NCBI GenBank assembly: GCA_000002445.1
Contig: CM000207.1
Coordinates: 1,984,001-2,048,000 of the forward strand
DNA from: Trypanosoma brucei
Taxonomy: Eukaryota
Direction of reading: 5' to 3'
DNA length: 64,000 bases
Positions 33,939 through 60,509 of this stretch are shown in pieces (the first letter of the stretch is position 1; the number at the start of each line of letters is the position of its first letter). The notes beneath the pieces are model-generated. The model was given only the letters and a program-made list of their open reading frames with translations. It was not told where the DNA came from and did no database searches. The position numbers and the translations under genes were made by a program.

Positions 33939-34315
33939 TTTCTCCTCTCAATATTTATTTATATATGAAAACACATCATTATACTTTTGTGCGTTGTATT
34001 TCATGTTATTATAAAACTTCTGGTGTCAGTATTGGGCAACTTCGTCTTCTTTTCACATTCTCTTGGTTTCGTTTTAATTGTTTTATTTGTGCTTTGGGTG
34101 TAGAAGGGAAAGCTTACACTTCGCAAACAATTTTTCAAAGAGAAAGGAAAAAAAGAAAGCACAGCAAAAAAAAAAAAAAGAAGCATCTGTAGTTTGCAGT
34201 TTCATAAAAGAAAAAAAAAGGTAGCAGAGTTAATATACGAATATATCTTTATATATTCCGTTTCCCATTTTTATACCTTGTGTTTTTTTTTCCTTGCTGT
34301 TGGTATTGAATAGCC

Positions 34316-34564
34316 ATGGACTACGAAGAACCAGGACAGGCCACACGAGAACTCACTACGTTTGTGCAGGGTCTCCTTCAAAACATGCAGACTCGCTTCC
34401 AAGAAATGTCGGATACGATTATCACTCGTATTGACGAAATGGGCACCCGTATCGATGACTTGGAAAAGAACATTGCGGAGCTCATGCAACAGGCGGGTCC
34501 TGATGAGGAAGCGGCTCAAACAGCTTCGGCCCCTAAAGATAAGAAAAAGAGTAAGGGGAAATAA
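34316..34564 (+). CDS. HSBP1: heat shock factor binding protein 1 (HSBP1) homologue
   Basis: 82 aa. [49 protein letters not shown] is collinear with the HSBP1 core (..[25 protein letters not shown]). Confidence 0.9.
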
Positions 34565-35946
34565 AATAATATTATGGCCATATGTTTTAGACACAACGAT
34601 GCTCATTCCTTCTCTTTCTTCTCTTTCCCAGTTTCCATTTTAACATCCACACACTTCATTTTGATGTACGACTTCGCCGTATTTGTTAATTTACTGACTC
34701 TTTGCTCTGTTTTGGATTTTTTTTTTCCCCCCCCCCCCTCCTTCTGTTCATCTCTTCTCGACTTCTGTGTCCACAATTTTGCCTTGTCCAAACGTTTGAA
34801 CGAATTTAATGTCCGAACCTGTGTGGCAAAGCAGTTGCGGCACGCACTGACGGAACAACAACAACAATAGCAGGAGCACACAAGCTACATTTGCACATGT
34901 ATTCACGTACGTGTAGGTGTAGGTGTGTTGAAGAGTGAAAGAGGTGGATGAAGTTAGGGGGAAATTAAATAAAGCGGAAGCAAAAAAAATAAAAATGAAC
35001 AAATGGATGGATGGATGGAAATAACTGGAACTTCCCGTGCAGTAAAGAAATGTCAACGGTAACAGAGAAAAAAAGGGGGGTATTTGAGAGGGGAAAGGGG
35101 AGGAAGAGCACACGCACATAAACGCTAAGATGCATATTTATTAATGTATACTCTTATGTATGTGTTTGTGTGTTTGTGTGTGCGTGTGTCATAAATATTA
35201 TATATAAATATTTGCTGCTTCTGTTTTGTTTTGCTTTTGTTTTCTGTTTCTTTGGGCTGTGGACGGGTCCTCTTTTTCTTTTTTTTTTGTGTGTGTGTGT
35301 TTATTTGCCTGCGTGATTGATTGTATCCTTTTGTTGCTTTCTCCTTCCTCAGATTATGTGCTTGAGGTAAAGTACGGCAATTTGCTATTTAAAAAAAATG
35401 AAACAGAAACAAAGTTGGGAGGATAATTATATTTGTGTGTGTGAGTGTGCGTGTAAGAGGTTGTCTACATTTACTGAAGAGTGAAATATAAATTGAGAGA
35501 CAACTTCTTTTCTTTTCTTCTTTCGAAGTAAAAAGTTGATGGTAAAAGTTGATGAGAGGCAAAGAAAATATGAACACTTAGTAGAAAGCACACGAAAGGA
35601 AAAAGGAGGAAGAAAATATTTAAGGAAAGATAAAGGAAAGGGGGGAAAAGAGAGGAGCACCGTCTGAAGCGTCAAATATTTTTTTTCTTCGAAAGGAGGG
35701 ATAATTTTTCTTTTAATTGCTAAAAGAAAGTATTGCCAAAGGAAAAGGGTGGATGCGAACACGAAACTTTCGCCTGATTCGCCAAATTGAAGTCGTTCAT
35801 TTCTGTGGCTTATGCTGGCCTACTGCAAAACTTCTCCATCTTTATTTCTTTTTTTTTCTTTTCGTTCTCTCGGTACCTGAATAACGTTAGATGCAGGAAG
35901 TTCACTAGCCACTGGATTTCGCCACATATTAATTCTCTTGCATCAT

Positions 35947-36486
35947 ATGACAACAGGTGGAAAGCAAGAAACCATTTACGACGCGTGCCGAAACGGTAAT
36001 GAGGCGCGAGTGGAGGAATATGTGCGGCACGGTGGCTCCGTAGTCGAATACGACAAATTCCGGATGACACTCCTGCACCACGCGGCATACTCGGGTAATA
36101 TTCGAGTTGTTGATTTCATTCTTTCCGCTCAATGTTCTGGACAACAGCAACAACAGCGTATTGACCTGGATGCAGCGGACGCAGATGGGTGGACTCCGTT
36201 ACACTATGCGGCCGATCGAGGGTTTGTGTCCATTACCGCAAGGCTACTGGAAGAAGGAGCAAATGTGAATGCGAAAGATGGAATGAAGCGCACGCCGCTT
36301 CACCTCGCAGCGACCAGCGGTCGCGTGGATGTTGTGAAATTGCTGCTGAGCAGCGGAGCAATGCGGGGAGTGAAAAATGTGGTTGGACTAACAGCGTTGG
36401 AGTGCGCCAAGGCTAATGACCAAGTTGATACAGTGAGTGTCCTTGAGCACTGTTTCACCAAGCGACAGCATGCAGAGGTGTGTTAA
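35947..36486 (+). CDS. ankyrin-repeat protein
   Basis: The track start at 35938 is TTG; the first ATG is at 35947. Repeats include TLLHHAAYSGN, GWTPLHYAADRGF and RTPLHLAATSGRVDVVKLLL. Confidence 0.85.
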   Translation: MTTGGKQETIYDACRNGNEARVEEYVRHGGSVVEYDKFRMTLLHHAAYSGNIRVVDFILSAQCSGQQQQQRIDLDAADADGWTPLHYAADRGFVSITARLLEEGANVNAKDGMKRTPLHLAATSGRVDVVKLLLSSGAMRGVKNVVGLTALECAKANDQVDTVSVLEHCFTKRQHAEVC

Positions 36487-40184: not shown

Positions 40185-42005
40185 ATGACGAAAGATAAAG
40201 TTAACTTTAGGTACTCAATGAAATACGCACAGGGTGCAGCTGCAGTGGAAGATAACATCGGCATAACTGAGTTACGATCGCCAACTGGCCGTTGCAGTGA
40301 TATGAATGAGGAGCGAAACTCACGCCTTACAGGACTGATGAAGTGGTCCTTGGATGATTACGTTGTTAAGGAAATGTGGCCAAGTGAAGCGTTTGCTTCT
40401 CCAAGCACCAAAGACTTGCAAAATGTGAGAGGTCCGGCCGCCTTCGCACTAAAAATTGTTGCTGAAGGAATACCAGACGAAACAATTGCCAAGCTCATCG
40501 AAAGAAAGTGTCCACCCAGAACATCAGTGAGGTTCACCACCCCCCTGGATTTCTGTAGCTCCCAGGAGCGTATTGCATTGGTATGTAGCCACACACACGC
40601 AAGCAAGCGTAACTTCCAGTGCCAGCAGGTGGCGCACGTTAGTGAGGGTGTTGTTTGCATTGGTGGAGCAGTTGACATTTCCTTGCATTTGCATGACATA
40701 AGTTCCTTGCCTCTGTGCATCCTCCCTGATGTTTCGTATTCAGTTGTATTCAGAGGTTTGAGAGGATCTCTTGCTGACATCCTTCCCCGTCTCGAAGCCC
40801 TCAGAAGCAATGGTTTTATTAATTACACCCACTTAGCACGGCACGGCGTTGGCCTCTTTCGGGCCTTTGAGAGCGGCAGGCAGCTTCTTCATAGGGAATA
40901 CGCGGAGTTTCTTCGTGGGTATGTGCTTAGCCTCACGGAGCGTTCACCAGCAGTTCATAAGGAACTACCACCATTTCTCGAAGCCATAGTGGACCCAAAG
41001 TTGAAGTGCAGCGATTGGGCGGGGGTGCGCAAAGGTTTGGAGTACGCGTTGAAGAGAGATGAGCCGTTGATTAACCTTCCTCAAACTGGGCTTTACTACC
41101 CACATCACACGCTTCTGCGAGACCTCGTCGAACGCGCAGCAGATCTCCTACCAAAGGAGCATGACTCCGCCCAAGTTATCCGCAATGCTGTACCACGGCT
41201 AATCATTCAGGAGAAACTCAGAAGCGTTGCAGACGTTCACTTTAATGCATTGGCTTCACTTCGGTGGAAAATGTACGGCGACAGAGTTGTACCAGGAGAC
41301 TTAGTTTTACGCCGCGGTGACAGCGGACACGCGACAGAGCCACTAGACGTGTTTGATGCCCCCGCGGACCATATAAACGGGGGCATGACGTCAGTAAGTC
41401 ACACGGAGTGGCTTTCTGCTGCCGGAGAGAAACACTTGGATGGCTTGTTAGAGCGGGTTCATTTGGTGAGCAGCGAGAAAGAGGCTCAGTCATTTACAAC
41501 AGATGATATTGTGCTCCCTGTACTGGGACGCTTTGCGGAGCGATTGATCTTACCCAACACAAAAATGAAAGATGCGTTTCAGCATATTGCACAGGAGTTA
41601 CAAGTAGAAGGATTACCACGGTTGCGTGCCGCTCCACCCGCAACCTATCGGTGGTTGATTGAGCGTCCAAAGAAGCTCGCTTACTGCATATTTGACGAAT
41701 CACGAGGTTGGTGTTGGGAAAGTGATAACAATGAACCGATTCGGTCGCAGTTGTATGAAGACCGGGAGGGAGTGCTGCGGCAACCCTCGCCGCTGATGGC
41801 TGTCACGGGGAAGAATATGGTAGCACGACGGGGAATACGCGGCACAGAACAGCGCCACCACTATCTGAAACCGGCGAGACGCGGTGGCATGACGTGCGTG
41901 GTGCGTATGACACTACCTAGGGGGACGGCTATCACCTCCGCCCTGCGGGAAGTGGTTCAGGTAGCTACACTCGATACGGGAGCGATATTCAGGCTTCTGA
42001 AGTAA
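40185..42005 (+). CDS. TruD/Pus7-family pseudouridine synthase-like protein, probably catalytically inactive
   Basis: Motif II is GFINYTHLARHGVG (family consensus GFINYFG.QRFG). Motif III is MTLPRGTAITSALRE (consensus F.LP.G.YAT..LRE). The motif I equivalent is THASKRNFQCQQVA against GTKDKRGVTCQRVS, which places Ser140 (40602-40604) at the catalytic Asp position. Confidence 0.8.
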   Translation: MTKDKVNFRYSMKYAQGAAAVEDNIGITELRSPTGRCSDMNEERNSRLTGLMKWSLDDYVVKEMWPSEAFASPSTKDLQNVRGPAAFALKIVAEGIPDETIAKLIERKCPPRTSVRFTTPLDFCSSQERIALVCSHTHASKRNFQCQQVAHVSEGVVCIGGAVDISLHLHDISSLPLCILPDVSYSVVFRGLRGSLADILPRLEALRSNGFINYTHLARHGVGLFRAFESGRQLLHREYAEFLRGYVLSLTERSPAVHKELPPFLEAIVDPKLKCSDWAGVRKGLEYALKRDEPLINLPQTGLYYPHHTLLRDLVERAADLLPKEHDSAQVIRNAVPRLIIQEKLRSVADVHFNALASLRWKMYGDRVVPGDLVLRRGDSGHATEPLDVFDAPADHINGGMTSVSHTEWLSAAGEKHLDGLLERVHLVSSEKEAQSFTTDDIVLPVLGRFAERLILPNTKMKDAFQHIAQELQVEGLPRLRAAPPATYRWLIERPKKLAYCIFDESRGWCWESDNNEPIRSQLYEDREGVLRQPSPLMAVTGKNMVARRGIRGTEQRHHYLKPARRGGMTCVVRMTLPRGTAITSALREVVQVATLDTGAIFRLLK

Positions 42006-42463: not shown

Positions 42464-44437
42464 ATGCACAAACCGGTGACGGCACGCGTGACTGTGAGTC
42501 TCCGTTTCACAGGAGTGCCAGGCATTCAAGGCCAGCGTGTCTTCCGTGACACTTTATCTGTAACGCATCCATACGATAACAGTTACGACAGAATTAGGGA
42601 TGTGGTGAATGAGAAGCTGAAGTTCATGAAGGCTCCCTTGTGTGATTTCACCGTCTTCCACAAAGATAACAAAACAAACGATGTTGTGGTCGTGGACAAT
42701 GCGTACTTTGCTGAGCTTGTGAGAGACCTTGTGGGGAAGGCGCTCGCATTGGGTGGGACACGCCCTGCCAGCATAGCGGAGGGTGTCTATAAATTGGGTG
42801 AAACACGCGACTTCAGAAGGAATGAGGTTTTAGGTGGTAGCTTTGATTATGAGGAGGAGGGGGAGGAAGTTGTTAGTTTAAGTGGCGTACTTTCGTTCGA
42901 TGTGGAGGTGACTAACGAGAAGACGGTGGTCGCCAAACCGAGTCTTAACAGCGGCACGGTGGTGCCACTGACAACGGAGGCGTTGCGAGCGCATGTGTCG
43001 GACGGTGTTCATGTAGCAATTGGTTCCCTCGTGTGTCCACCCAAACATCCAAATGTCTTCATTCGTGCTGCGGTGATTGGCATTCACTTTAAACAGCTGA
43101 ACTCAGGGCAATCACTGTGCCGATTAGATCTCTGTGAGCCGGAGGATGTGCGGCAGCAGATTACGGCTGTTACTTTTGACGCTTCCGTACAAAAGGCGAT
43201 TAGAGATAATCTTAAGGGAGGTGGGAGAGAGGTTGTAGAGCTGCGCAACGCTTATATCCGTAAGAAAAACGAAACAGACATACGATATCAGGTCAACATG
43301 CATCCTCTTATAATCGGGATGAACTCCTGCTCACGGATTGAAGTTGTGCGGCTGCTTCCAGCCCCAGTTGCTCTGAACCCCGAGAACGTTGTGACCATGC
43401 GGGAGAATTTACGCCCCACCGGAATCATTAACTTTGGTGGCCCAGCTGTCTCGAGTGAGAAACCTGTTAATTCAAGTCTTTCCCAACCGATGCGGCAAAA
43501 CGCGTCTGCTACAGGTTCCTCTTCGTCGTCATCGGTACAAAGTGGACCGAGGAAGACGATGTTATCACTAAACAGCGCGGCATCCAACACCATAACTCCG
43601 ATTTCCGGCGTAGTTCCTTCACATCTTGGCGAAGAAATGAGGCGACAACAGGCCAACTTTCTCTCCAAGCGGACGCGTGAAGAACCTCTACCAAAGGAAC
43701 CAGACACAATCCACGTGTCCGTGAAGGACGTGAGAATGAGAGATATGATTGTGGCGCAGTACGCCGTTAGAGAGGAGGAAACCAAAAATCGAATTCGACG
43801 GCGGAAGGAAGTAAACCAAACGTGTATCATCTGCGGGGTAAATTGCGAAGACGAGAGCACTTTAACTTTGGTGGCAGATCTGTTGAAGAACAATAGCGAA
43901 AACAGAGGAAGGCGCATCCCATCAATGGCGGAGCTGCGTTGGGCACTATGCGACCGGCGGCAAACAAAGAGCGGACAGGTTGGGAACCGTTTAGTGTGCG
44001 CACAATACTTTGTGGATACCCGAACCAACTCCCTTCACGTGGTGCACTGCCGCTGCGCTCATCTTTGTACGGGTTATCAAAGAGGACGAGATTTGGAGGA
44101 TATTGTAGCGTTAGAGCTACCCATGCAAACCTGTACTCTCTGCGGTATGCCGGGGGCGAGTGTCTTCTGCTACCATCCGGATTGTCGCGAGATGTATCAC
44201 ACAATTTGTGCGTTGTTTTGTTTTGGTTATGTGAACTTTGGCAAAAAGGATCCGCACCTGCCGTGTCCTGCGTGTCCAAAACATACACAAGTCAAACACT
44301 TACTGCCCGACGAGGCCGGTCCCGTCACGTATGCGCAAAGCAACTCCGCGTGGTGGGAGGAAGACAAAGTAGTGTTTGATTCCTCAATAGTTGAAACTAC
44401 GGATCTACGAGACCCGGATGAGAATGAGGGAGCATAG
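42464..44437 (+). CDS. hypothetical protein with a C-terminal extended-PHD-like zinc finger
   Basis: 657-codon ATG ORF. CIICGVNCEDE is followed by CTLCGMPGASVFCYHPDCREMYHTICALFCFGYV...CPACPKH, a Cys/His spacing of ePHD type. Confidence 0.8.
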   Translation: MHKPVTARVTVSLRFTGVPGIQGQRVFRDTLSVTHPYDNSYDRIRDVVNEKLKFMKAPLCDFTVFHKDNKTNDVVVVDNAYFAELVRDLVGKALALGGTRPASIAEGVYKLGETRDFRRNEVLGGSFDYEEEGEEVVSLSGVLSFDVEVTNEKTVVAKPSLNSGTVVPLTTEALRAHVSDGVHVAIGSLVCPPKHPNVFIRAAVIGIHFKQLNSGQSLCRLDLCEPEDVRQQITAVTFDASVQKAIRDNLKGGGREVVELRNAYIRKKNETDIRYQVNMHPLIIGMNSCSRIEVVRLLPAPVALNPENVVTMRENLRPTGIINFGGPAVSSEKPVNSSLSQPMRQNASATGSSSSSSVQSGPRKTMLSLNSAASNTITPISGVVPSHLGEEMRRQQANFLSKRTREEPLPKEPDTIHVSVKDVRMRDMIVAQYAVREEETKNRIRRRKEVNQTCIICGVNCEDESTLTLVADLLKNNSENRGRRIPSMAELRWALCDRRQTKSGQVGNRLVCAQYFVDTRTNSLHVVHCRCAHLCTGYQRGRDLEDIVALELPMQTCTLCGMPGASVFCYHPDCREMYHTICALFCFGYVNFGKKDPHLPCPACPKHTQVKHLLPDEAGPVTYAQSNSAWWEEDKVVFDSSIVETTDLRDPDENEGA

Positions 44438-45972: not shown

Positions 45973-47728
45973 TATTGGGGGAAAGTGACACAATTTAACA
46001 CAAAGATTAGGTGTTATGTGTCGTTGTCTCATGGAAAAGTTGCTTCGCCTCACAGTTCATTAAAAAAAAGGATGGGATTGAAGTATCTTTCCACCAACAA
46101 GTATTTAATAATAAAAGAAAGAAAAGAGGGTGTAGATTACAAAACCCGGGTGTTGAGACGAACGTGGGTACGCCTGCCTGCGCATGAGTAAACTTGATTA
46201 TACCTTCGTACACTGAGAGTTTTTGCACATGACGCTTTGTAACTAATATTGTGTTGTCTCCTCTAGCTCTCCTTCCACTTGTTCTTTAGCATATTTCGTA
46301 TGTCGCTGGATCCGGTTTGTTCGATTTTACTTTGCGAGAGTTCGATGGGGGGCTGACGTCCGCTGGCAGGGAACGTAATTGTTGAACCTGAGGAATTTGC
46401 ATTCGGTGAAACTGTTGTTGGGCGGTCTTCGCTTTCAACTGCTGTATCTTTTGGTCTGGGCCCTTGAGTTGTTTTCGTTGTTGTAAGTTGTATGGGTCCG
46501 CCCTTCGTGGGGATTTTGCCCGCTGGGAGGTTCCACTACTCGGGTTGGAGGGCTGTGACTGATCTGTGGTCGATGTGATTCCTGTTTTGGTAGTGTGTTA
46601 AGCTGGAATCCCAGGTGAGCTAAATAGGCGTTTTTCCAGTTGGTCAATCCGGTTATAAAGTTGCTGGACTTGCTTTCGTATCGCCGCCGCTTTTTTCACG
46701 TTCCTGTTCCGCGTTACGGTGGCACTGTTCCACTCGTTGGGTTTCGCTGCTTCTGTGGATAAGGTATGCTGTTATGGCTACTGCCTATGTTACGCAAAAA
46801 AAAAAAATAGCACAAAAGGTGACACAGCGGGACCGGCTACAGCGACTGCCGTTTTGCGAACTATCTGTTACCTGTGATACGGCTATATAGATCCTGTGCC
46901 TTTAAGGGTAGTGGCCCGATTGGAGATTGAAAGCGTATCTTGCGAAGTGTTTTGGGGCCTCCAACAGTTATCCTCATCGAGGTGTTAATGCCCGAAAAAT
47001 GGCGGTCACGCGCTCACACCGCGCCCACTAAAAATTCGCCGCTAGACACTAAGCGGGAAGATGCGGACCGAGCTTAAAGGAGTGTTGTGTTGTTCGAGCT
47101 AAAACAACCCTAGCGCTCTGTGTGTATCCAGTTCTTATTACTTTCTTGTTTGTGTCTTCTGCACCAATCCATCAAGTTATATAGAAGGCCATATATGCGT
47201 GGTTCATGGTTATTATCATAGGCAATCCATTCACGGTGCTCACGATATGGGTGTCTTCATCTCAAATCTCTCTGACAAACTGTCACGTTGGTAAGAAGTA
47301 TAGTCTATTCTACACCTATCAAAGAGCAGGGCGCCCGACGGTATTGTCATCACTTCGCTGGTCCAAAGATTTTGTAGTAGATAAGCTTGAGATACTGTGA
47401 GCACATAATGTATAGTGTGGTGCGGACACTCACCTCCTTTAAAGAAACTTGGCGGTATACAAGCTGTAGTCTGTGTAATATGTTTGCATTCACGGCTATC
47501 TTGTTCAGAAATATGTGCAATCTGACCAGTGATACTTTCTTTCTGCGAGATGGCTCATTGGCAGGATTGAGTGCTGAGGGAGCGGAGTAAAAGTGCCACA
47601 TTATTTTTTTTTTAATTACGTAAGTCGTTGGTGGTGATTGCTACTATAGCGTTCAGTTCTTCATTTTGTTTTTTTTCTCTTTTACCATGGCGTATCGTAG
47701 GACTCTGTTGTCAATTGCAAAAGCAATT

Positions 47729-47730
<2 letters not shown>

Positions 47731-47778
<48 letters not shown>
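47731..47778. repeat. (GTT)16 trinucleotide microsatellite
   Basis: 16 perfect GTT units. This produces the poly-Leu pseudo-ORF at 47666-47848. Confidence 0.95.
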
Positions 47779-47779
<1 letters not shown>

Positions 47780-48301
47780 TGGGGGCCACTGAATGGAGTG
47801 AAACGGCGAGTGTGCGTTTTGTGGCTTCCGCTTCTGCACTGGTTATAAGCATGGTATCATTATAGATGCTGTCAGGGTCCCATTATTCACCATAAGCATG
47901 GAAGTCTTTCGGAGATTGGGCGTCACTCACTGTAGCAAACCATCTTTATGTACTTTTATCACTAATGATAGCCATATCAGGTGATTGTTGTGTGATCGGT
48001 TCCGGGTGGAGCGACTTTCGAGGATTGTTTGTCTTAACGATCTTCCATAAATCTTTAAGGGTCCGTCGCATCGAGTTGTTGAGGATATCATCTTAGTCAA
48101 TTTTGCGGTTTTGTCACCAGTGAGTCAAGCGTCTTCGTAGCGACTTGACTGTATATACGTAACGAAGCCAATTAACACCGAGTGTAGATGCCACTGAGCG
48201 GAATTTTGACCAGAGTTTTTCGAGTTCGATTACTTTTAGCGTCCTGGGGATAGATTCGTCCCCTGTTAGATGAGCTCGTGTTCTTGTTAAAGTTCTATCC
48301 C

Positions 48302-48999
48302 CTATGTGTACGGTATGTTTGTTTCTGTCCCATTTGATGCCGATATAGCCGTATTGTCATCTATACTCCGTTTCGCCATAGGTAACACGGGTTTCTCGGG
48401 CTCTCTTGTTTGTACATTTGTATACACATCCGCGGACTTTGTGGTAGGGGGCGTAATTCGTATGTCGTGGATCCACACGTCGATGATTTTTTGGACGTGG
48501 GGGAGTAGTTGCTCGTCCGTTCGTACGATACGCGGGTCCTCGGCTAGGACTAATAACAATAACTGCATAATTTCCAGTGATCCTACATAGCCGGTAGACA
48601 GCCTCGTGAATTCGTACGCTACTCCATCTTCATCAAAAAACCCAAAGTTTATCTGGGCGCGTGTTGATAATTCATCTTGGAAGGCCGCCGCCTCAAGGCC
48701 CATTGTAAGTGCTGGTGGTGCCCATACCCTAGATAGCAACTCCTGTTTAAAATATAGGCATAAGCTCGGACAATAACCATCTGCATATACTTCATCGTTA
48801 ATTGCTTGTGGCCATAATATCATTCGCCGTTGCCATTTTTTCGCTTCAACTCCATAACGGTATTTGGCCACGCATAGGCTATAATATAGTGTGGATCAAC
48901 CCTACCAATAATATGTGCGTCTTCCAGTTGCCGTGCATCCTCTCACCGAGGCTTGAATGCCGTCTCACATTCGATAATTATGGCATTGTCCTTGGGCAT
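48302..48999 (-). pseudogene. decayed ORF of unknown family (in-frame stop plus frameshift)
   Basis: A - strand ATG at 48999 is preceded by a polypyrimidine tract (complement of 49026-49046) and AG. The reading MPKDNAIIIECETAFKPR hits TGA at 48943-48945 and continues in the same frame as EDARQLEDAHIIGRVDPHYIIAYAWPNTV. The frame then changes at the A6/T6 run (48836-48841) into the 189-aa track ORF, whose own listed start is GTG. Confidence 0.55.
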
Positions 49000-49210
49000 C
49001 CTTTACAGTGCGCTCCATCTTTTTTAAAAAAAAACAAGAGAAATATACACATCCGTTGTCGAAACCGAGGACACGTCCATACAATCAATTGGAAGACGTC
49101 TGCCCCTCTCCTTTTCTCTTGATTCGTCATGCTTCCGGGAGGGGGACCTATGGCTGGGCAAACCAGTTAGGAGACGGCAATCGGACGACAATATGTCATG
49201 ACATGTAATA

Positions 49211-49628
49211 TCACGCAGATGCCAGGTCCGAGTAAATCCAGTCTATGCCGTTTCCAGTGCATGGGACGCCGTTTTGCACTTCCATCATTGTCTCGTCGAT
49301 TTGGTCCAGTCGTTCGGTGATGCGAGTTCGCCCGTTTCTAAGAGACATAAGCGGTTCTTTGAGGTTGGCGAGGCGGTTTTTGACACCCTGCAATTCCTCG
49401 CAGGATATCTTAATGCCTTTAATTTGGTTAATCGTATTGGCATCCAGACGGTTGATGGATTTAACTAACTCGTCCCAGTGTCCGTGTACGACCGTATTTA
49501 GAATCTCTGGACCGACCGAGTGAGTAAGAGAGTGAACCAGTTGAGAGGTCTCGCCGACTGTGATCGACGGTCGCTTTATTTGGGTACGGCGACTCTCACG
49601 AAAGCAATAAGAAAAGTGCAAAACGCAT
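49211..49628 (-). pseudogene. ATG-less coiled-coil-like ORF, possible gene remnant
   Basis: The track ORF starts with TTG, and its first in-frame ATG is at codon 92. An out-of-frame ATG at 49628 (MRFALFLLLS then stop) could be joined to it by a 1-nt indel in the T runs. The sequence is helical and heptad-like (LVKSINRLDANTINQIKGIKISCEELQGVKNRLANLKE). Confidence 0.35.
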
Positions 49629-51523
49629 ATTCACATTCAACGGCTCGCGTTGGCCGGAAAATTCTGGAGGGAACGCAGTTTGTCAGCACGTAGTTAACGT
49701 GCGGGGGGCGGTGCTGTGCGAACTGTGCTTATGATGCTTTATAAAATGATATAAACCAGGCGAGATCTGCATTCATGAAGACCGTCTGTTTCCGGATCGT
49801 GGGGTAGCCGGCGTGTGTGGTGGATGGAACCCTGACCCGCGCGTGGGAAGGCGGTGCAACGCGACCAGATCAAGCAGCTTGCGGGCGTTGCTGACTAATA
49901 GTTGTTAAGAGGCAAACCTGTTGGTTTGGAGGACTTTGGGGCGCACCCGGGTGGAGATGTTTCAGATGCGGAAGGGTTGGAAGAGTTGGAAGGGAGATGC
50001 GAATCCATCATCTTACGCGAAGTGGGAGGCACGAAAAGGAAGCACGGCAACTGTAGCAAAAGCAACGTGAATGCCAGTGGTGTGTTTGCGTTGTTTCCGC
50101 GGCGCTGGAAAGAGTGCAAAGACCGGAAAAATAGAGTTGCGGTTCATGTAAAACCGTATGCGTGCAATGCCCGGTAGTGAAGCAGGATTTAAGAAAAAAA
50201 AAGAGAGATAAACATGCGGGGAGGAAGTTTACGAGTTCAACATGTGAAAGGTGTTTCGTAGCAGGGGCTCTGATAATGCACATCAACCTCGTGAATATGC
50301 ACGGCCCCGTGGCACCGCTAAAGGGACTACGAGCAGTGGAGGGAAAGTGGAGTTAGCCGTAGCCGCGCCGGTGTTGAAACCAAAATAAAAAAAAAGGATG
50401 ACATGGAGGTAACAGTTAAGGAAGGAGAGGATAGAGAGAACAGGGTGGGGTTGGAATAAAATGTTCCTAGTAAACTTTTGATGTTCACGGGGCACGTGGG
50501 ACTCCAAAGAGTAAGGAGAGGTGCGCACTTAAGGCACACACAAGAAAAATGCATACTGAATCCGATTGCGCGCTCCGAGGGGTTTCCTGACGCTTTTATA
50601 AGGAAGTGGAAAGTGTGAAGTGAAACCCACCAGTGCCCCATACTGCGGCTAAACGTAAGCGAGGCGAGTTGGTCTAAAAGGTTTAGTAGGAAGTACACAC
50701 GGCGATGGAAAGAAGGACGTTTACAACAAATTGAAGTTGGGCATCCAAGGATTGCTGAGCCACTTGCCCGAATGCACTGCCGTGGAGAAGCTGAAGATGA
50801 AGCATGAACTAATAGGCTTGACGAAGAAAGTGTCTGATGGGTTCTCTGCCTGTGCTCCCCAGCAGAGAAGGCCCAGACGAATAGAGAAAAAAAAACTCAG
50901 CGAAAAAGAAATTCAATCTAAAAAGAGAAGGGGGTTATCTTCTCACAGGGGGAATACCGACCATCGGAATTGCCACCTTTGGAGTTTTTTTTTGTTAAAA
51001 AAGGGATATAAATATTCTCTTATCTTTGAATGCAGCATTGCCTTTGAGAACTTGAAGAAAAAAAAAGTAGCGAAAGAGGTATTTCAGTTCTTTGCGAAAA
51101 CACAAGTATGTAAGAAAACTCAAGTGCGAAGAGGCCAGTGGTGACAAACACACATATGAAGACCATAAAATTAAGGCTCCTTGTCATCGTGTTCAAGTAC
51201 GGCAAAACAGTTGCTTGCTGATACGTTTACTATTTAAAAATAAAAACATTTTCTTTTTTGCAAAAATAACACAACTACTGCTAAGAAGGTAAACAAGCTG
51301 TTTTACGGGCGTGTCGTCCCTCTGCCGGCATTCCAAACCCTCAAACGAATATTTTGGTTAGAAGGAGCGAATACGCGGCGATGGGATGTATGTCTTTTGA
51401 AAATAAATAAAAAAAAATAAAGAAGTTAAGTGCACACTAGTGCTTTGGAAAAAAAAAAAAATAATAACAATAATAGTAAAAGGATCAGAAAATAGTCCTC
51501 ATTTACATATCCAACACGCACCG

Positions 51524-52093
51524 TTATGACATCATTAACATCGCGGAAACTAAGAGCAGCAATGGAACAACGTTTGTGCTTAACGATGCCGCCAACACCT
51601 CTGTGCCACCTCCATTGGACTCACACTCTCCACCGTCTACGCACGTGTCGGTCTTCGTTACTTCCGTTACATCTTCGGGATCTTCGATGTCATCCTTCTG
51701 CAGGCCATCATCATCACTTTTGACAGCAGGGCTTTTTGTGTCAACATTTGTTCCCTCAACTGCTCCTTTGGTGCCTGAGTTCCCCCCATTCCCCTCTTGA
51801 AGGTTGTTGTCATCACTTTTGTTGGTCGGACCTTTGGGTTTGGCACCTGCTTCTTCATCACTTTTGCTGCCATCGGGATATTCCATATCTTTCTCATACG
51901 GGATGCTGGCCTCCTCCTCTTCTTCTTCTTCTACGTCAGGCGGATCCTCAATGTCTCCTCTACTAACGCCAGGATTGTTGAGGAATTTATTCACCAGCCC
52001 TGCTGCTGCCCCCTTTGCTTCCACTTCTCCATTTAAAAGAGAGCCATTCATGAGCATCGCAACCAAGTATGCCAAAAGAGCCGTTAGCCTCAT
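51524..52093 (-). CDS. small acidic secreted protein, putatively GPI-anchored
   Basis: True ATG start. N-terminal signal-like MRLTALLAYLVAMLMNGSLL. D/E-rich body containing E7 and two DIEDPxDV motifs. The C-terminus ...GGGTEVLAASLSTNVVPLLLLVSAMLMMS has small residues followed by a hydrophobic tail, as in GPI signals. Confidence 0.7.
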   Translation of the reverse strand: MRLTALLAYLVAMLMNGSLLNGEVEAKGAAAGLVNKFLNNPGVSRGDIEDPPDVEEEEEEEASIPYEKDMEYPDGSKSDEEAGAKPKGPTNKSDDNNLQEGNGGNSGTKGAVEGTNVDTKSPAVKSDDDGLQKDDIEDPEDVTEVTKTDTCVDGGECESNGGGTEVLAASLSTNVVPLLLLVSAMLMMS

Positions 52094-52842
52094 CTATTCT
52101 TTTTTCTCTTTTTTTTCGCGTCCCAATGTTGCCTTATCTTGATTTAATTATTTATTTTGAAATAAATACGGGGAGAGCACACCAGGCATTTATATCGAAG
52201 GAATGCTCCCAGAAAAAGTTGGTAACTATCAATGTGAGGCTGTATCAAAAGCAATGTTTGTCCAACCCAAAGGTTTGGTACGATTTGGACAAACTTCCGC
52301 CCCTCCGCTATGCTGAGTTTGTCTCCCACATTCCGTGGGGAATGGACCAGGCCGTGATGAAACTACGGCGGTTCCAGAACCCCCCCCCAAAGGGAAAATG
52401 TTACGGATGCAGCCTCTTTTTGTGTAAAATGTGAAAAAAGTTTTTCGAAAACATGCTTTGAAAGACGATATATGGTTGCGAATTCTCTCCCCCTCCCCCC
52501 CCCCAAAAGACCACATTAACCCTTCGCAGCTGGTCAAATACTCAGGGGTAACTCGTCGTCTTCCCCAGTGCATGCGTTTGCGCGTGTCGGCAGCTGTGGC
52601 GGAGCGTCGATGTCCCTAGTGGGTGCTCGCGTGGCTCAATGCGGAGGTGGGGATAAGACCGCATGATGCGGGAATGTAAGACTCTGACTGGGGACATCAT
52701 TATAAACAACCCTCCCCTCCATGCCTTCAAAAAACGCAAACAGGGTTACACCTCCAACGCCCATGTCGCAAACGAAGGAGCGAAGCCTTGCTGATTTCGG
52801 TTCCAGGAACGATACCATACAAATTTTTAGTGTTGACGCGCG

Positions 52843-52913
52843 GCGCAGTTGGTCTAGTGGTAGAATTCTCGCCTGCCACGCGGGAGGCCCGGGTTCGATT
52901 CCCGGACTGCGCA
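52843..52913 (+). tRNA. tRNA-Gly(GCC): tRNA-Gly (anticodon GCC)
   Basis: 71-nt cloverleaf. The acceptor is GCGCAGT/ACTGCGC plus discriminator A. The anticodon arm is CTCGC-CTGCCAC-GCGGG. The T arm is CCGGG-TTCGATT-CCCGG. The body AGTGGTAGAATTCTCGCCTGCCACGCGGGAGGCCCGGGTTCGATTCCCGG matches canonical eukaryotic tRNA-Gly(GCC). Confidence 0.97.
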
Positions 52914-52916
52914 TCG

Positions 52917-52921
52917 TTTTT
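52917..52921 (+). terminator. Pol III T-run terminator of tRNA-Gly
   Basis: TTTTT begins 4 nt after the discriminator base. Confidence 0.8.
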
Positions 52922-53657
52922 CTGCCGCATGCAGAACCCACCATTTTTTTTTACTTATTTTGGAACGAACTTGCTATTTTTTTTTGTTTGGTTGCTGTTG
53001 TTTGTTTGCCATCATTTCGCTACGGTGACGATAATTCCCCGCCACGCTTTGTCTCCACATTTGCAAAACTTACGCTAACGGAGGGTGCTGTAGAAATATG
53101 AGCGTCCCCCGGAGGCACCGCAAGTCCGCTTGGTACATCAAACCTCAGAGACGAGAAGGGACGAAACTCGTTTAGACCCGATGTTGGTCGGAACGGGCCA
53201 TTCACACAGGTTTCACCGTCGCCGACCCAGCTCACCATACAAAACTACCCCTCCCGCTTAACATCCACGGACACCGAGACGCTCATATGATAATAACTAC
53301 GATTTCGCAGTTGCTGTTTCACAGCGTGTATGAACTGTTTCAAACCACACACGCCAAATGACGCGACACAACAAACTAATAAACACACAGTAAAAAAAAT
53401 GAATGAGCATCCAACTGCGCAAATTCATTGATAGAGAACGCCTGTAAACAAAACCACAAACAATGCAGCCATGTCCACACTAGAAGCGTATAGCACTGTT
53501 ACCTCTCACTAAAGTGTTAAACGGGAACTGCAGCTGCTGCGCTACAGAGTCGATAGTCACAGCGTCCCTCGGTGTTTGCATCCGGAGAGATGATGACGGG
53601 AGGGAACCATTTCCAGCTTCTTTTTCCCACTTCTTTTTTTTTCAGGAGCTTGTAACG

Positions 53658-54011
53658 CTATGCACTCTCTCCGGAGCGTCGCGAGACCTCCAATTCCTCC
53701 TCAACGGTGTCCACATCGAACCCAAGACCCCTCATTTCCTCAAGGTACCGTTGCGTTGGATCACCACTGGCGTCCATTGCTTCTTTTCGTGAGCGCTGCC
53801 TCCGCATGGCATACCCGAAGGCGGCCACACCACCGCCAAACACAAAAAATGCACGCAAGCCGCGCCACGCCAATCCCCGGAGAATCTGTGTGTTTTGCTC
53901 AAAGCACTCCGAACCAATCTTCTCCGCGATTCGCATATTCTGCCGCGTCCGCTCATCAAGCCCCAACGGCGGTTTTTCACCACCACCACCACCATCCCCG
54001 CTCATTGCCAT
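53658..54011 (-). CDS. small single-pass membrane protein, function unknown
   Basis: The track start at 54050 is GTG; the first ATG is at 54011 (MAMSGDGGGGGEK...). There is one hydrophobic Gly-rich segment (AFFVFGGGVAAFGYAM) and an acidic C-terminus. The overlapping + strand ORF at 53660-54250 is low-complexity His/Pro/Arg-rich and is rejected. Confidence 0.6.
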   Translation of the reverse strand: MAMSGDGGGGGEKPPLGLDERTRQNMRIAEKIGSECFEQNTQILRGLAWRGLRAFFVFGGGVAAFGYAMRRQRSRKEAMDASGDPTQRYLEEMRGLGFDVDTVEEELEVSRRSGESA

Positions 54012-55538
54012 ACGCCAAGCTGAATGCGTTTCGGCTAAATAATTCCACACACTATGTCCCCCTTAACTGTATGAGTGTTTCCCCGATCGCTTCCTTTATC
54101 CGCTTGCTTGTTTGGAGAAGGTACTTCGTTCGCCCTATTGCCCGTGTATGCAGCAAGGTAAACAACAAAAAAACACATGAAAGAAGTGGAGTGGGCCACT
54201 GGAGATGCAAATGTCTTCGCCATCGAGTACACACTCATGTTGTTGGTTAAAGGCATCCGTCTGCTTTGAGTACGGCCTGTTCTGCGTTAAGTGGGGTGGA
54301 AACATAATAATTTTAAACATGGCGCCATCTCAAGGAGTGGTGAAACTTCTGCCCACGCCGGCAAGATGTGTACAGTACGGTGCGACAGTTGATAACGCGC
54401 AACACAACGCGGAAAGGGAAGGGAAGGGAAAGTAAAGTAAAGGGGGCGGGAGGGGGAAAGAAAAAGGCTAAAACAAATTTGAGGTGGAAGCAGCGGGTAT
54501 AAAAAGTAAAATGATTGGGGAGCGATTGTCTCCTCACAATGCCACTTTCCTCCCTCGAAAAAAAAAAAAACTCGCGCGCAGCTCACAAAAAATGTTTCCT
54601 TCAAATGCGTTTCCCCTTCCCTCACAACTCTACAACTTGTTCCCAACGCGCCACCGGCAGGAAAATATCTCGGAGAGGGGGAAAAAGAAAAGAGGCCGAT
54701 GCGCAAAAAACGACGGCGCGGAGCATCACGTGGTTATCGGCAACCGCTGTGGTGGTCGAGCCGATGTTTGGAGGTCGTAAAAACCAGCGATGATCCGCAG
54801 ACACGAACGTGTGAAGTTTTCGCCCTCTCGTAGGCGAAAGTGGCGATAAACCACAAACTTTTTTTTTGTGTATTGAGAGAGCGGAATTCCGGTTTTACCC
54901 CTTTGAGTTGTTCTTTGGTCGTGAGGGATTGAAGAGGGGGACAAAACAAGATAGCGGAGAGCACCTCATTTCCTCCCTTCATCATGCCGCTAGCCATTCC
55001 TCCTCATCGTCATATACGCCCAACGCGTGGCACTCCCCTTCAATTGTTATGAACAAAAATTCAATAAAAGCAGGCAAGGATACCGAACAAAAACAGAAAA
55101 GAAAAAAAGACAACCAAACGGGAAACTGCCGCCGAGGACTCTAGCCACGTTGACCTGCAAATGCTGCCTCACTTCAGCCGGATGCCATTTCACCCCTCCG
55201 TACCTCAAGGGAAAGAAGATTTGGCCGCTTTTACTTCTTTTTTAAAAAAAAAGAAAAATATCTCTGCCTTCTTCCTCTTTGGCGCCACAAAGGTGAAGGG
55301 ACGTAGCAAGTGATCAAATACAGTTAGATAGATATGGCGGATAGAAACACCGCAGTAGAGTTATACGTATATGCGAGCGTGTATTATAGATGTCACAAAG
55401 GCAATTCCACGTGCCTAGGTCCATACAGCCAATAGTTTGTGGTTTCCCCACGCACGCACCACCTTTTACCACGAAAAAATTAAAAAAAACCCGTACACCG
55501 AGAGTGAAGCAACAGCCACATCATCGTGCCTATCGGGT

Positions 55539-56036
55539 TTAACTTCGAAGCCTTGGTCGCCGAATGTGCAGCTGACGCGCGGGACTGGTGTTTCGGCTAC
55601 CCGCGCTGCTGACACTAGGGGCACATACGCTCGAGGCGCTCGTCGGGAGGTTGATTAGCGATGGTTGAGTCTGCAGACGACCTCCAAACGGCCTGCGTGC
55701 GGAAGGACTCGACATTCTCGTTGTGCGGCTGTCCCGTCCCGGTGTTGCTTCCCTTTGAGTGTCTCCCCCCGTTCCCCTCATTTGAAGGTTAGATGTTGGG
55801 GAGGGGCGTCGCAACGGCGTGGTGGGACACTTTTGGTGTAGAGTATCCACTTTCTTCCCCAGGATAGTCACGACTGCCTGGAGGTTGCGGCAATCTGCCT
55901 CTCTATCTGCTAACTCCTGCGTGACTCTCGCAAGTTTTTCTTCAAATGTGTCCCTCTGGCGGCGCAGCTCGGCTTCAAATATAACCTTCTGCCGAAGAAG
56001 CTCCGCACGGAAAGCATCTAACTCATCAGAACTCAT
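55539..56036 (-). CDS. hypothetical protein with an N-terminal coiled coil and an S/R/P/T-rich tail
   Basis: ATG-initiated 165-codon ORF. It begins MSSDELDAFRAELLRQKVIFEAELRRQRDTFEEKLARV. Confidence 0.65.
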   Translation of the reverse strand: MSSDELDAFRAELLRQKVIFEAELRRQRDTFEEKLARVTQELADREADCRNLQAVVTILGKKVDTLHQKCPTTPLRRPSPTSNLQMRGTGGDTQREATPGRDSRTTRMSSPSARRPFGGRLQTQPSLINLPTSASSVCAPSVSSAGSRNTSPARQLHIRRPRLRS

Positions 56037-56444
56037 ACTGACACAACAGGCAGCGGGGTGCCAAATGTTTAATGAACCTCCAAGGTGATTCCCTTCTATA
56101 AATGTTGCTTTTTTCCCTTTAAATTCTTCTCCCTATCCTCAACGGCTTCCTTAACCTACCCAACTGCATTCAAAGAGGAGGAGATGATGCCAATAAGCAA
56201 TGATAAGAGGTACCAACGATGTGCTGACGTGAAAGGTTGTCTAGTCTTCCACAACTCTTGTTTGGAAACCAATGAACATATATATTAATTACGCGCCTCC
56301 AACAGCCTTAGCTGCACGTGTTGGAAACAAAAACGAAGGTAATCATCCGACGCAGGTAAAAGAGGAAGTAGGGAATATCTTGTGACTCGCCATCGGAAAC
56401 TCGCATTGCCTGCACACGCAAGCGACAACCAACATGTACCACCA

Positions 56445-60266: not shown

Positions 60267-60509
60267 GCGTATGTTTGTAAGCCCTTTGCTTTTTTTTCTT
60301 TGCGCAGTAAGTAAACGAAAGGACAAAGGGGGGAAAAGTAGGGACCGGACCCAACTACTAAGCAAATTAACTGGTGGAACAGGGAGTGGTGGCACACGCT
60401 TAGAAAACAGCGGAGAGTTGTTGGTGTGCACGTAGTACTCACGCGCACAAAAAAAACAATGATAAGGGTAAATAATAACGGGAGGAAAACCTACTTGCAA
60501 GAAACGAAC

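What the first reader, a model, noticed from the sequence alone, without database searches (positions are those of the whole stretch)
40185..42005. Pus7/TruD-family protein with the catalytic aspartate position occupied by serine
Family membership is clear from motif II (GFINYTHLARHGVG) and motif III (MTLPRGTAITSALRE). The segment collinear with the catalytic motif GTKDKRGVTCQRVS reads THASKRNFQCQQVA, so the essential Asp aligns with Ser140 (40602-40604). The motif II Gln-Arg-Phe is also altered to Ala-Arg-His. This suggests a pseudo-enzyme that may have kept RNA binding without isomerase activity, or a highly divergent active site.
Basis: partly seen in the sequence, partly recalled or inferred. 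Interest (0 to 1): 0.6.

Follow-up and report, generated by a model that had tools for sequence, protein, structure and literature searches.

The report
Divergent trypanosome TruD/Pus7 paralog, aspartate retained
This Trypanosoma brucei gene encodes an uncharacterised, very divergent relative of the Pus7/TruD pseudouridine synthases, and the reported loss of the catalytic aspartate to a serine is an alignment artefact, because an invariant aspartate (D122) sits in the loop where the catalytic one belongs.

Summary

The central claim fails. THASKRNFQCQQVA resembles motif I no better than chance: 65% of shuffled sequences reach its score. The segment is not conserved in orthologs. It lies one strand downstream of the catalytic loop in two AlphaFold models.

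The loop between strands 114-117 and 126-135 carries D122, invariant in 24 of 24 orthologs, in an F-x-x-P-x-D motif with canonical [FY]AGxKD spacing. Invariant R129 sits at the Gln87 position. Low-confidence profile alignments and anchored alignments to E. coli TruD place D122 on the catalytic column.

K53, Y59, E63 and Y185 are kept. The Lys79 and Asn129 equivalents are lost, and motif II is rebuilt as NY[ST]HxARHG.

Cleft positions are more conserved than in mt-LAF4, the known inactive paralog (Asp to Gly). A canonical PUS7 (Tb927.10.9050) exists elsewhere in the genome.

Activity is unresolved. Interest is moderate to low.

The parts
40185..42005 (+). Complete intronless ORF, 606 aa plus stop. 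Identical to T. brucei TREU927 XP_827542.1 / UniProt Q38DA8 and T. equiperdum TEOVI_000008900.
40341..40373 (+). N-terminal cleft motif K53-W-S-L-D-D-Y59-V-V-K-E63. It corresponds to E. coli TruD K21/F27/E31 (yeast K61/F67/E71). K/R, an aromatic residue and Glu are conserved in orthologs.
   Evidence: hhalign aligns KWSfDDyiVEE to KqRySDFiVxEi; conservation; residue roles from PMC8794802 and PMC12084886
40437..40535 (+). Predicted strand 85-94, helix 98-107 and strand 114-117. These correspond to the canonical FxLxKENxDT strand-helix and xYAG strand that precede the catalytic loop.
   Evidence: AF2 secondary structure; hhalign MAC alignment
40533..40571 (+). Remodelled catalytic loop F117-T-T-P-L-D122-F-C-S-S-Q-E128-R129. 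D122 (GAT, 40548-40550) and R129 (CGT, 40569-40571) are invariant in 24/24 orthologs. The F-to-D spacing (+5) and D-to-R spacing (+7) match canonical F75/D80/Q87.
40593..40634 (+). It is a variable, indel-rich segment (a short helix in the models) downstream of strand 126-135, and a chance look-alike of motif I.
40731..40754 (+). Equivalent of the NxF...LR motif: V183-S-Y185-S-V-V-F-R190. The Asn is lost (T/L/V/R/I in orthologs), the stacking Phe becomes a near-invariant Tyr, and the Arg is invariant.
   Evidence: mutational data for yeast N305/F307
40812..40853 (+). Motif II, GFINYTHLARHGVG (residues 210-223). Canonical NYFGxQRFG is rebuilt as NY[ST]HxARHG. N213, H220 and G221 are invariant; R219, H216 and A218 are near-invariant.
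40854..41654 (+). TRUD-type insertion domain, approximately residues 224-490 (boundaries approximate). Includes the conserved DVHFNALASLR, vGDLV, VLPxxG and YR motifs plus family-specific helices.
41907..41951 (+). Motif III, MTLPRGTAITSALRE (residues 575-589). R588 and E589 are invariant.

Best explanation
The gene encodes a kinetoplastid-conserved, highly divergent paralog of the TruD/Pus7 pseudouridine synthases. It has the full V-shaped fold: a catalytic domain plus a TRUD insertion domain. The catalytic loop is rebuilt but still carries an invariant aspartate, D122. Ser140 is not the catalytic position.

Proposed mechanism (inferred, not shown). RNA binds in the cleft between the two domains. 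A uridine is flipped in and stacks on Y185, the Phe131/F307 equivalent. D122 acts as the nucleophile, and E63 (the Glu31 equivalent) and K53 help position and complete the reaction, as in TruD/Pus7. The second shell is remodelled: the Lys79 equivalent is hydrophobic (L121), the Gln87 position is an invariant Arg (R129), the Asn129 equivalent is lost, and Q-R-F of motif II is A-R-H. This would give a different pocket, and probably a different, lineage-specific substrate or slower chemistry.

Sub-probabilities:
- S140 is not the catalytic position: about 0.95.
- D122 is the structural equivalent of the catalytic Asp: about 0.75.
- The protein still makes pseudouridine: about 0.45.
For: Fold and homology.
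- hhalign probability 99.9% over residues 177-596.
- Foldseek top hits are mt-LAF4, human PUS7, yeast Pus7 and TruD.

Catalytic loop.
- Two independent AF2 models (T. brucei and Leishmania, 41% identical) show strand, helix, strand, loop with the Asp, then strand.
- D122 and R129 are invariant in 24/24 orthologs. They are two of only four invariant residues between positions 65 and 176.
- The F117/D122/R129 spacing equals the F75/D80/Q87 spacing of E. coli TruD.
- hhalign without the eukaryotic insertion puts D122 on the catalytic Asp. The transitive alignment through mt-LAF4 lands within one residue.
- Anchored global alignments to E. coli TruD give D80 to D122 in 12-15 of 24 orthologs, Q87 to R129 in 10-14, and F75 to F117 in 12-15.
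- In sliding-block tests the D122 register ranks 2nd to 6th of about 100 offsets.

Selection on the cleft.
- Mean entropy percentile at cleft positions is 0.17, against 0.35 in the inactive paralog mt-LAF4.
- The mt-LAF4 catalytic column is G/S/A and its motif II drifts.
- The replacement residues here (R129, H220) are themselves invariant, which looks like remodelling rather than decay.
- K53, Y59, E63 and Y185 are retained. Their roles are described in PMC8794802 and PMC12084886.
Against: - Motif I is unrecognisable to Pfam (no hit at E<=10), NCBIfam (14.9 bits against a 172.2 cut-off), hmmsearch and hmmalign.
- The D122 placement therefore rests on low-posterior alignments, on topology and on conservation.
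- Sequence scores for the D122 register are only z = 1.3-3.3 and never the single best.
- One phmmer alignment to yeast Pus7 puts E128 on D256.
- The Asn of the NxF motif is lost. N305A costs about 2,500-fold in yeast Pus7 and F307Y about 400-fold.
- The Lys79 equivalent is lost, and motif II has four substitutions.
- The most distant relatives (P0032, P0036, P0039, P0041) lack the Asp.
- There is kinetoplastid precedent for PUS-fold proteins that work without catalysis. mt-LAF4 is described as inactive. mt-LAF3 D211A complements fully.
- No experimental data exist for this gene.
Confidence: 0.5

Rival explanations
1. It is a catalytically dead pseudo-synthase. The fold and cleft are kept to bind RNA or to act as a placeholder or assembly factor in a ribonucleoprotein, as with mt-LAF4 and mt-LAF3 in mitoribosome assembly. 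The conserved Asp would serve binding or structure, not chemistry.
For: - The Asn129 and Lys79 equivalents are lost and motif II is rebuilt. N305A costs about 2,500-fold in yeast Pus7.
- Curated TruD models fail to recognise the protein.
- The nearest solved relatives are mt-LAF4 chains, which are described as inactive placeholders.
- mt-LAF3 keeps its Asp, yet D211A complements fully.
- A further mitochondrial TruD-superfamily protein co-purifies with the Diplonema mitoribosomal large subunit.
- Distant relatives lack the Asp.
- A canonical PUS7 (Tb927.10.9050) already exists in the genome.
Against: - D122, R129, E63, Y185, H220 and the RE pair are invariant or nearly so across kinetoplastids. 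The cleft is clearly more constrained than in mt-LAF4, where the Asp column and motif II drift.
- The protein is absent from all solved T. brucei mitoribosome assembly intermediates. No PDB chain is near-identical; the best match is only 46.7 bits.
- The N-terminus is highly conserved from Met1 and runs straight into the canonical E..GI start of the domain. This is not typical of a cleaved mitochondrial presequence (my inference).
Confidence: 0.4
2. The catalytic column is occupied by E128, giving Asp to Glu in most Trypanosoma and S/A/V/T elsewhere. The nucleophile would be truly lost in most of the family, and D122 would be an unrelated conserved loop residue.
For: - phmmer aligns FCSSQERIALVC with yeast YAGTKDRRAVTC, placing E128 opposite D256.
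- The short strand-3 block test ranks this register 3rd of 127.
- A few anchored alignments place residue 128 on D80, 1-4 of 24.
Against: - Position 128 is not conserved: E, T, S, A, V, K, R.
- The longer block tests and the conservation-profile test give z about 0 or negative.
- The profile alignments and the majority of anchored alignments prefer D122.
- This register needs 4-residue insertions on both sides of the loop.
Confidence: 0.08
3. One reading: motif I is THASKRNFQCQQVA and the catalytic Asp has been replaced by Ser140.
For: It is the best motif-I-like 14-mer in the T. brucei protein, with 5 of 14 identities to GTKDKRGVTCQRVS and rank 1 of 593.
Against: - The score is reached by 65% of shuffled sequences.
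- The segment is not conserved and is indel-rich in orthologs.
- This register is the worst of all in the conservation-profile correlation, r = -0.45 and -0.59, and random in profile scoring.
- It is never chosen in the anchored alignments.
- It lies after the strand that follows the catalytic loop in two models.
- It would need a 16-residue insertion before the motif and an 8-residue deletion after it, relative to canonical spacing (my count from the sequences).
Confidence: 0.03

Closest known systems
TruD/Pus7 pseudouridine synthases (E. coli TruD 1SI7/1SZW, yeast Pus7 7MZV, human PUS7 5KKP; T. brucei PUS7 = Tb927.10.9050)
   Different: Motif I GxKDxxAxTxQ is replaced by FxxPxD(x6)R: the Lys before the Asp is lost and the Gln becomes Arg. 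The Asn of NxF is lost. Motif II is NY[ST]HxARHG. The large eukaryotic insertion domain I of Pus7 is absent. There are extra family-specific helices and a conserved ADHxNG loop. The Pfam and NCBIfam TruD models do not recognise it. Activity is untested.
mt-LAF4 (T. brucei Q385G9; PDB 6YXX/6YXY/7AOI; Leishmania 7AM2_CA), an inactive TruD-like mitoribosomal large-subunit assembly factor
   Same: A kinetoplastid TruD-family paralog of similar length (616 aa). It is the best PDB sequence hit and the best Foldseek hit. Both have degenerate motifs I and II and lack the Asn of NxF.
   Different: It is a separate clade, about 25% identical. mt-LAF4 has Gly/Ser/Ala at the catalytic column but keeps the TxQ Gln, whereas this protein keeps the Asp and has Arg at the Gln position. 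The mt-LAF4 cleft residues drift among orthologs; here they are fixed. This protein is not present in any solved mitoribosome intermediate.
PUS-fold proteins whose function does not need catalysis (T. brucei mt-LAF3/PUS5, human RPUSD3)
   Same: They set a precedent that a PUS fold with a degenerate catalytic motif can act as an RNA scaffold. mt-LAF3 keeps its Asp, yet D211A complements. RPUSD3 lacks the Asp.
   Different: They belong to a different PUS family (RluA, not TruD). There is no evidence that this protein is mitochondrial or ribosome-associated.

Membership tests
TruD/Pus7 pseudouridine synthase family | Two-domain TruD fold (catalytic PUS core plus TRUD insertion domain) | tested here: met
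TruD/Pus7 pseudouridine synthase family | Recognition by curated family profiles (Pfam PF01142 TruD; NCBIfam TIGR00094) above their cut-offs | tested here: not met
   Pfam gives no family even at E<=10. TIGR00094 gives 14.9 bits against a cut-off of 172.2, covering residues 186-258 only. Homology is nevertheless clear from profile methods: hhalign 99.9%, and the ortholog profile against PUS7 chains gives E 9e-15.
TruD/Pus7 pseudouridine synthase family | Motif I GxKDxxAxTxQ with the catalytic Asp (E. coli D80, yeast D256) | tested here: inconclusive
   No window matches the motif better than chance, and HMMER cannot align the region. An invariant Asp (D122) lies in the topologically equivalent loop with canonical F(-5) and (+7) spacing. 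Low-confidence profile alignments and anchored alignments place it on the catalytic column. A residue-level 3D superposition could not be done.
TruD/Pus7 pseudouridine synthase family | N-terminal active-site residues K21, F27, E31 (yeast K61, F67, E71) | tested here: met
   K53 (K20/R4), Y59 (Y12/F10/L1/T1) and E63 (E22/H1/D1) are aligned by hhalign to KqRySDFiVxE.
TruD/Pus7 pseudouridine synthase family | NxF motif (E. coli N129/F131, yeast N305/F307) | tested here: not met
   The Asn column is T8/L8/V3/R3/I1. The Phe column is Y22/C1/H1, so an aromatic residue is kept.
TruD/Pus7 pseudouridine synthase family | Motif II NYFGxQRFG | tested here: not met
   It reads NY[ST]HxARHG. N, Y, R and G are kept. 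F becomes S/T, G becomes H, Q becomes A and F becomes H, and the replacements are themselves conserved.
TruD/Pus7 pseudouridine synthase family | C-terminal motif III (LPxGxYATxxLRE) | tested here: met
   It reads LPRGTAITSALRE. R588 and E589 are invariant.
TruD/Pus7 pseudouridine synthase family | Uridine-to-pseudouridine isomerase activity | not testable with these tools
   No experimental data were found for this gene.
mt-LAF4 (mitoribosomal large-subunit assembly factor) | Orthology to T. brucei mt-LAF4 (Q385G9) | tested here: not met
   About 25% identity by BLASTP. mt-LAF4 orthologs form a separate clade at 35-46% identity to each other. They are separate genes in the same genome.
mt-LAF4 (mitoribosomal large-subunit assembly factor) | Presence in solved mitoribosome assembly intermediates | tested here: not met
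   No PDB chain is near-identical to this protein. The best hit is the Leishmania mt-LAF4 ortholog at 46.7 bits.
mt-LAF4 (mitoribosomal large-subunit assembly factor) | Catalytic Asp lost | tested here: not met
   The mt-LAF4 column is G5/S3/A1/D1. The candidate column in this family is D24/24.

The most novel reading that the evidence does not exclude
The protein is an active pseudouridine synthase that uses a previously undescribed TruD-family active-site arrangement. The features are an F-x-x-P-x-D catalytic loop, an Arg at the Gln87 position in place of the Lys next to the Asp, no NxF asparagine, and a His-rich motif II. It would modify a kinetoplastid-specific RNA target that the canonical PUS7 does not cover.
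Probability: 0.35. Interest if true: 0.55.

Novelty: new variant of a known kind. Interest (0 to 1): 0.33.

Why it matters
Trypanosomes control gene expression almost entirely after transcription and make heavy use of pseudouridine. They have already turned two PUS-fold proteins, mt-LAF3 and mt-LAF4, into ribosome-assembly scaffolds. This third TruD-family member is conserved across kinetoplastids and has not been studied.

If it is active, it would show that the TruD active site tolerates far more remodelling than mutagenesis of Pus7 suggests, and it would point to an unassigned set of pseudouridine sites. If it is inactive, it is another pseudo-synthase, but one whose cleft is under strong constraint, which implies a specific RNA ligand.

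There is also a practical lesson. A single-sequence motif match led to a wrong call of 'catalytic residue lost'. Ortholog conservation and topology corrected it.

Tried and rejected
- Pfam and NCBIfam scans gave no usable motif I alignment.
- hmmsearch and hmmalign of orthologs to a canonical core HMM, and the ortholog profile against PDB chains, never align residues before about 177.
- Full-length hhalign MAC and global alignments are misled by the Pus7 insertion domain and leave the catalytic motif in a gap. I rejected them as unreliable and repeated the alignment with the insertion removed.
- Model coordinates are not exposed. I therefore could not measure the distance from D122 to the other cleft residues or superpose residue by residue.
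- I tried to confirm a trypanosomatid canonical Pus7 among the profile hits by name. The 'AKTSQ' clade turned out to be arthropod Pus7. The existence of TbPUS7 therefore rests on the literature.
- Naming the taxa of the deep orthologs failed because they are unnamed SRA or metagenome assemblies.
- Literature searches for Q38DA8, for Tb927.9 with TruD, and in the supplements of the PUS survey found nothing on this gene. The other 'TruD' hits were author names.
- Gene neighbourhood gives no functional clue: the neighbours are unrelated, as expected in trypanosome polycistrons.
Full report
**What is there**

The window is Trypanosoma brucei-group DNA. ORF 40185-42005 (+) encodes a 606-aa protein. 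It is 100% identical to T. equiperdum TEOVI_000008900 and to T. brucei brucei TREU927 XP_827542.1 / EAN77212.1 / UniProt Q38DA8. NCBI calls it 'hypothetical protein, conserved' and UniProt calls it 'TRUD domain-containing protein'.

Full-length orthologs exist in all trypanosomatids sampled: T. congolense 66% identical, T. cruzi 59%, Leishmania about 41%. The L. panamensis ortholog is annotated 'pseudouridine synthase, putative'. An exhaustive profile search finds 27 proteins with E<=1e-30, which I take to be orthologs, before canonical Pus7 sequences begin.

The gene sits in a plus-strand polycistron among unrelated genes: BTB, NIF phosphatase, SNARE, TRAPPC9-like.

**Checking the observation**

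S140 is AGC at 40602-40604, GFINYTHLARHGVG is residues 210-223, and MTLPRGTAITSALRE is residues 575-589.

Family membership is right, though it is not trivial to show.
- Pfam's TruD model gives nothing even at E<=10.
- NCBIfam TIGR00094 gives 14.9 bits against a cut-off of 172.
- Profile-profile alignment to canonical Pus7 has probability 99.9% over residues 177-596.
- An AlphaFold model (pLDDT 77, pTM 0.82) matches mt-LAF4, human PUS7, yeast Pus7 and TruD by Foldseek.

Motif II is altered as stated: NYFGxQRFG becomes NYTHLARHG.

**The Ser140 assignment does not hold**

- THASKRNFQCQQVA is the best motif-I-like 14-mer in the T. brucei protein (rank 1 of 593). Its log-odds score against a canonical motif I matrix is -20.9 bits, and 65% of shuffled versions of the protein contain a window at least as good.
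- In the other 23 orthologs the homologous window ranks roughly 46th to 636th, with one exception at rank 2. The segment varies in sequence and length.
- Sliding canonical profile blocks along the ortholog profile gives the S140 register z = -0.7 to +1.0.
- Correlating the conservation profiles of the two families makes it the worst register of all, with r = -0.45 and -0.59, rank 90/91 and 113/113.
- In the T. brucei model, and in an independent model of the Leishmania ortholog, the segment is a short helix after the strand that follows the catalytic loop.

**Where the catalytic loop is**

Yeast Pus7's catalytic Asp lies on a loop between two strands (PMC8794802). The models give strand 85-94, helix 98-107, strand 114-117, loop 118-125, then strand 126-135. 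This matches the canonical FxLxKENxDT strand-helix, the xYAG strand, the catalytic loop, and the AxTxQ strand.

- That loop contains D122, invariant in 24 of 24 orthologs. R129 is also invariant. Together with G155 and P176 they are the only invariant residues between positions 65 and 176.
- F117 (23/24), D122 and R129 have exactly the spacing of E. coli F75, D80 and Q87.
- With the eukaryote-specific insertion removed, hhalign's extended alignment is collinear with one gap and puts F117-T-T-P-L-D122 on Y-A-G-T-K-D, at low posterior confidence.
- As a control, the same procedure aligns the mt-LAF4 family's motif I cleanly and shows Asp replaced by Gly, matching the published 'inactive' call.
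- A transitive alignment from this family to mt-LAF4 to canonical Pus7 lands on L121/D122.
- Global alignments of each ortholog to E. coli TruD, anchored at the K21 motif and at the NxF-LR motif, place D80 on D122 in 12-15 of 24 cases under three gap settings. They place Q87 on R129 in 10-14, F75 on F117 in 12-15, and never choose S140.
- Block-sliding ranks the D122 register 2nd to 6th of about 100 offsets.
- One phmmer alignment to yeast Pus7 instead puts E128 on D256. Position 128 is not conserved and that register scores near zero in the other tests.

I could not superpose residues in 3D because model coordinates are not exposed. I therefore rate D122 as the catalytic-Asp equivalent at about 0.75, not as proven.

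**State of the rest of the active site**

The TruD signature from the literature is K21, F27, E31, K79, D80, Q87, N129, F131 (PMC12084886 and PMC8794802).

| E. coli residue | Equivalent here | State in orthologs |
|---|---|---|
| K21 | K53 | K or R, kept |
| F27 | Y59 | Y or F mostly, kept |
| E31 | E63 | 22/24, kept |
| K79 | L121 | V/L/I, lost |
| D80 | D122 | 24/24, kept |
| Q87 | R129 | 24/24, replaced by Arg |
| N129 | V183 | T/L/V/R, lost |
| F131 | Y185 | 22/24, conservative change |

Motif II keeps N, Y, R and G, but has an invariant His (H220) for Phe, and a near-invariant His (H216) and Ala (A218) for Gly and Gln. The WN Asn, the YR Arg and the RE pair are invariant.

In yeast Pus7, N305A costs about 2,500-fold and F307Y about 400-fold, but neither abolishes activity. 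Only D256A does.

Cleft positions are much more conserved here than in mt-LAF4 (mean entropy percentile 0.17 against 0.35). In mt-LAF4 the Asp column and motif II drift.

**Interpretation**

The most likely reading is a TruD/Pus7-fold protein with a remodelled but selectively maintained cleft that still contains the nucleophile. It would work like TruD/Pus7 in binding RNA and a flipped uridine. Whether it completes isomerisation is open; I put that at about 0.45. Moving the basic residue from the position next to the Asp to the Gln87 position is my inference, not a shown mechanism.

The main rival, at about 0.4, is a non-catalytic RNA-binding or assembly factor. It has strong local precedent:
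- mt-LAF4 is an inactive placeholder for the central protuberance in mitoribosomal large-subunit assembly.
- mt-LAF3 keeps its Asp, but D211A complements fully.
- A TruD-superfamily protein co-purifies with the Diplonema mitoribosomal large subunit.
- The most distant relatives of this family lack the Asp.

Against that rival, this protein is absent from every solved T. brucei mitoribosome intermediate, and its cleft is unusually constrained.

The genome also has a canonical PUS7, Tb927.10.9050, whose silencing affects tRNA pseudouridines. This gene is therefore an extra paralog, not the organism's Pus7.

**Novelty and verdict**

Membership of the TruD superfamily is already recorded by automated annotation. 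No paper in the searchable library treats this gene.

What is new is modest: a kinetoplastid-wide subfamily with its own signature, FxxPxD(x6)R and NY[ST]HxARHG, which curated TruD models miss. I classify it as a new variant of a known kind.

The broader idea of a divergent active site stands. Interest is moderate to low (0.33). It would rise if D122-dependent activity, or a defined RNP role, were shown.

Noticed in passing
window 46000-56400; tRNA at 52843-52913 (+): There is a convergent strand-switch region. All long ORFs up to about 45.8 kb are on the + strand and all from about 56.4 kb are on the - strand. GC skew flips sign near 52 kb. A lone tRNA-Gly(GCC) sits in the roughly 10-kb ORF-poor gap. 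This is typical of a trypanosome polycistron termination zone.
   Followed up: partly
window 42464-44437 (+): The downstream neighbour (657 aa) has a Cys/His-rich C-terminal third (e.g. CIICGVNC..., CTLCGMPGASVFCYHPDCREMYHTICALF..., CPACPKH) that looks like a PHD or zinc-finger-like module. It has no Pfam hit at E<=0.001.
   Followed up: no
window 40185-42005, residues 216, 220, 307-308, 327, 352, 388, 395-398: The family has its own set of invariant or near-invariant His/Asp residues that canonical Pus7 lacks: H216 and H220 in motif II, PHH at 306-308, HDSAQ, DVHFN, D388, and an ADHxNG motif in a low-pLDDT loop (392-401). Whether they cluster in 3D, for example as a metal or ligand site, could not be checked without coordinates.
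   Followed up: no
proteins P0032, P0036, P0039, P0041 (profile-search hits, unnamed assemblies): More distant relatives of this subfamily (E 1e-38 to 1e-76 to the profile) lack the D122-equivalent Asp and the E63-equivalent Glu in my alignment. Closer ones (P0033, P0034, P0035, P0040, P0043) keep the PxD motif. Their taxa are unknown, and the alignment in this region is uncertain.
   Followed up: partly
mt-LAF4 family alignment (P0165 and 9 orthologs): mt-LAF4 orthologs keep K21, E31 and the TxQ Gln equivalents invariant although the catalytic Asp column is G/S/A. One of the ten members has Asp at that column.
   Followed up: no
window 10001-12000 and 34001-36000: Two GC-poor stretches (GC 0.39 and 0.38, against about 0.48 elsewhere) coincide with long intergenic gaps between + strand ORFs.
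   Followed up: no
window 56445-58517 (-) and 58977-60500 (-): The opposite polycistron starts with an NADPH-cytochrome-P450-reductase-like protein (flavodoxin, FAD-binding and NAD-binding domains) followed by an RRM protein with two RRM_1 matches.
   Followed up: no
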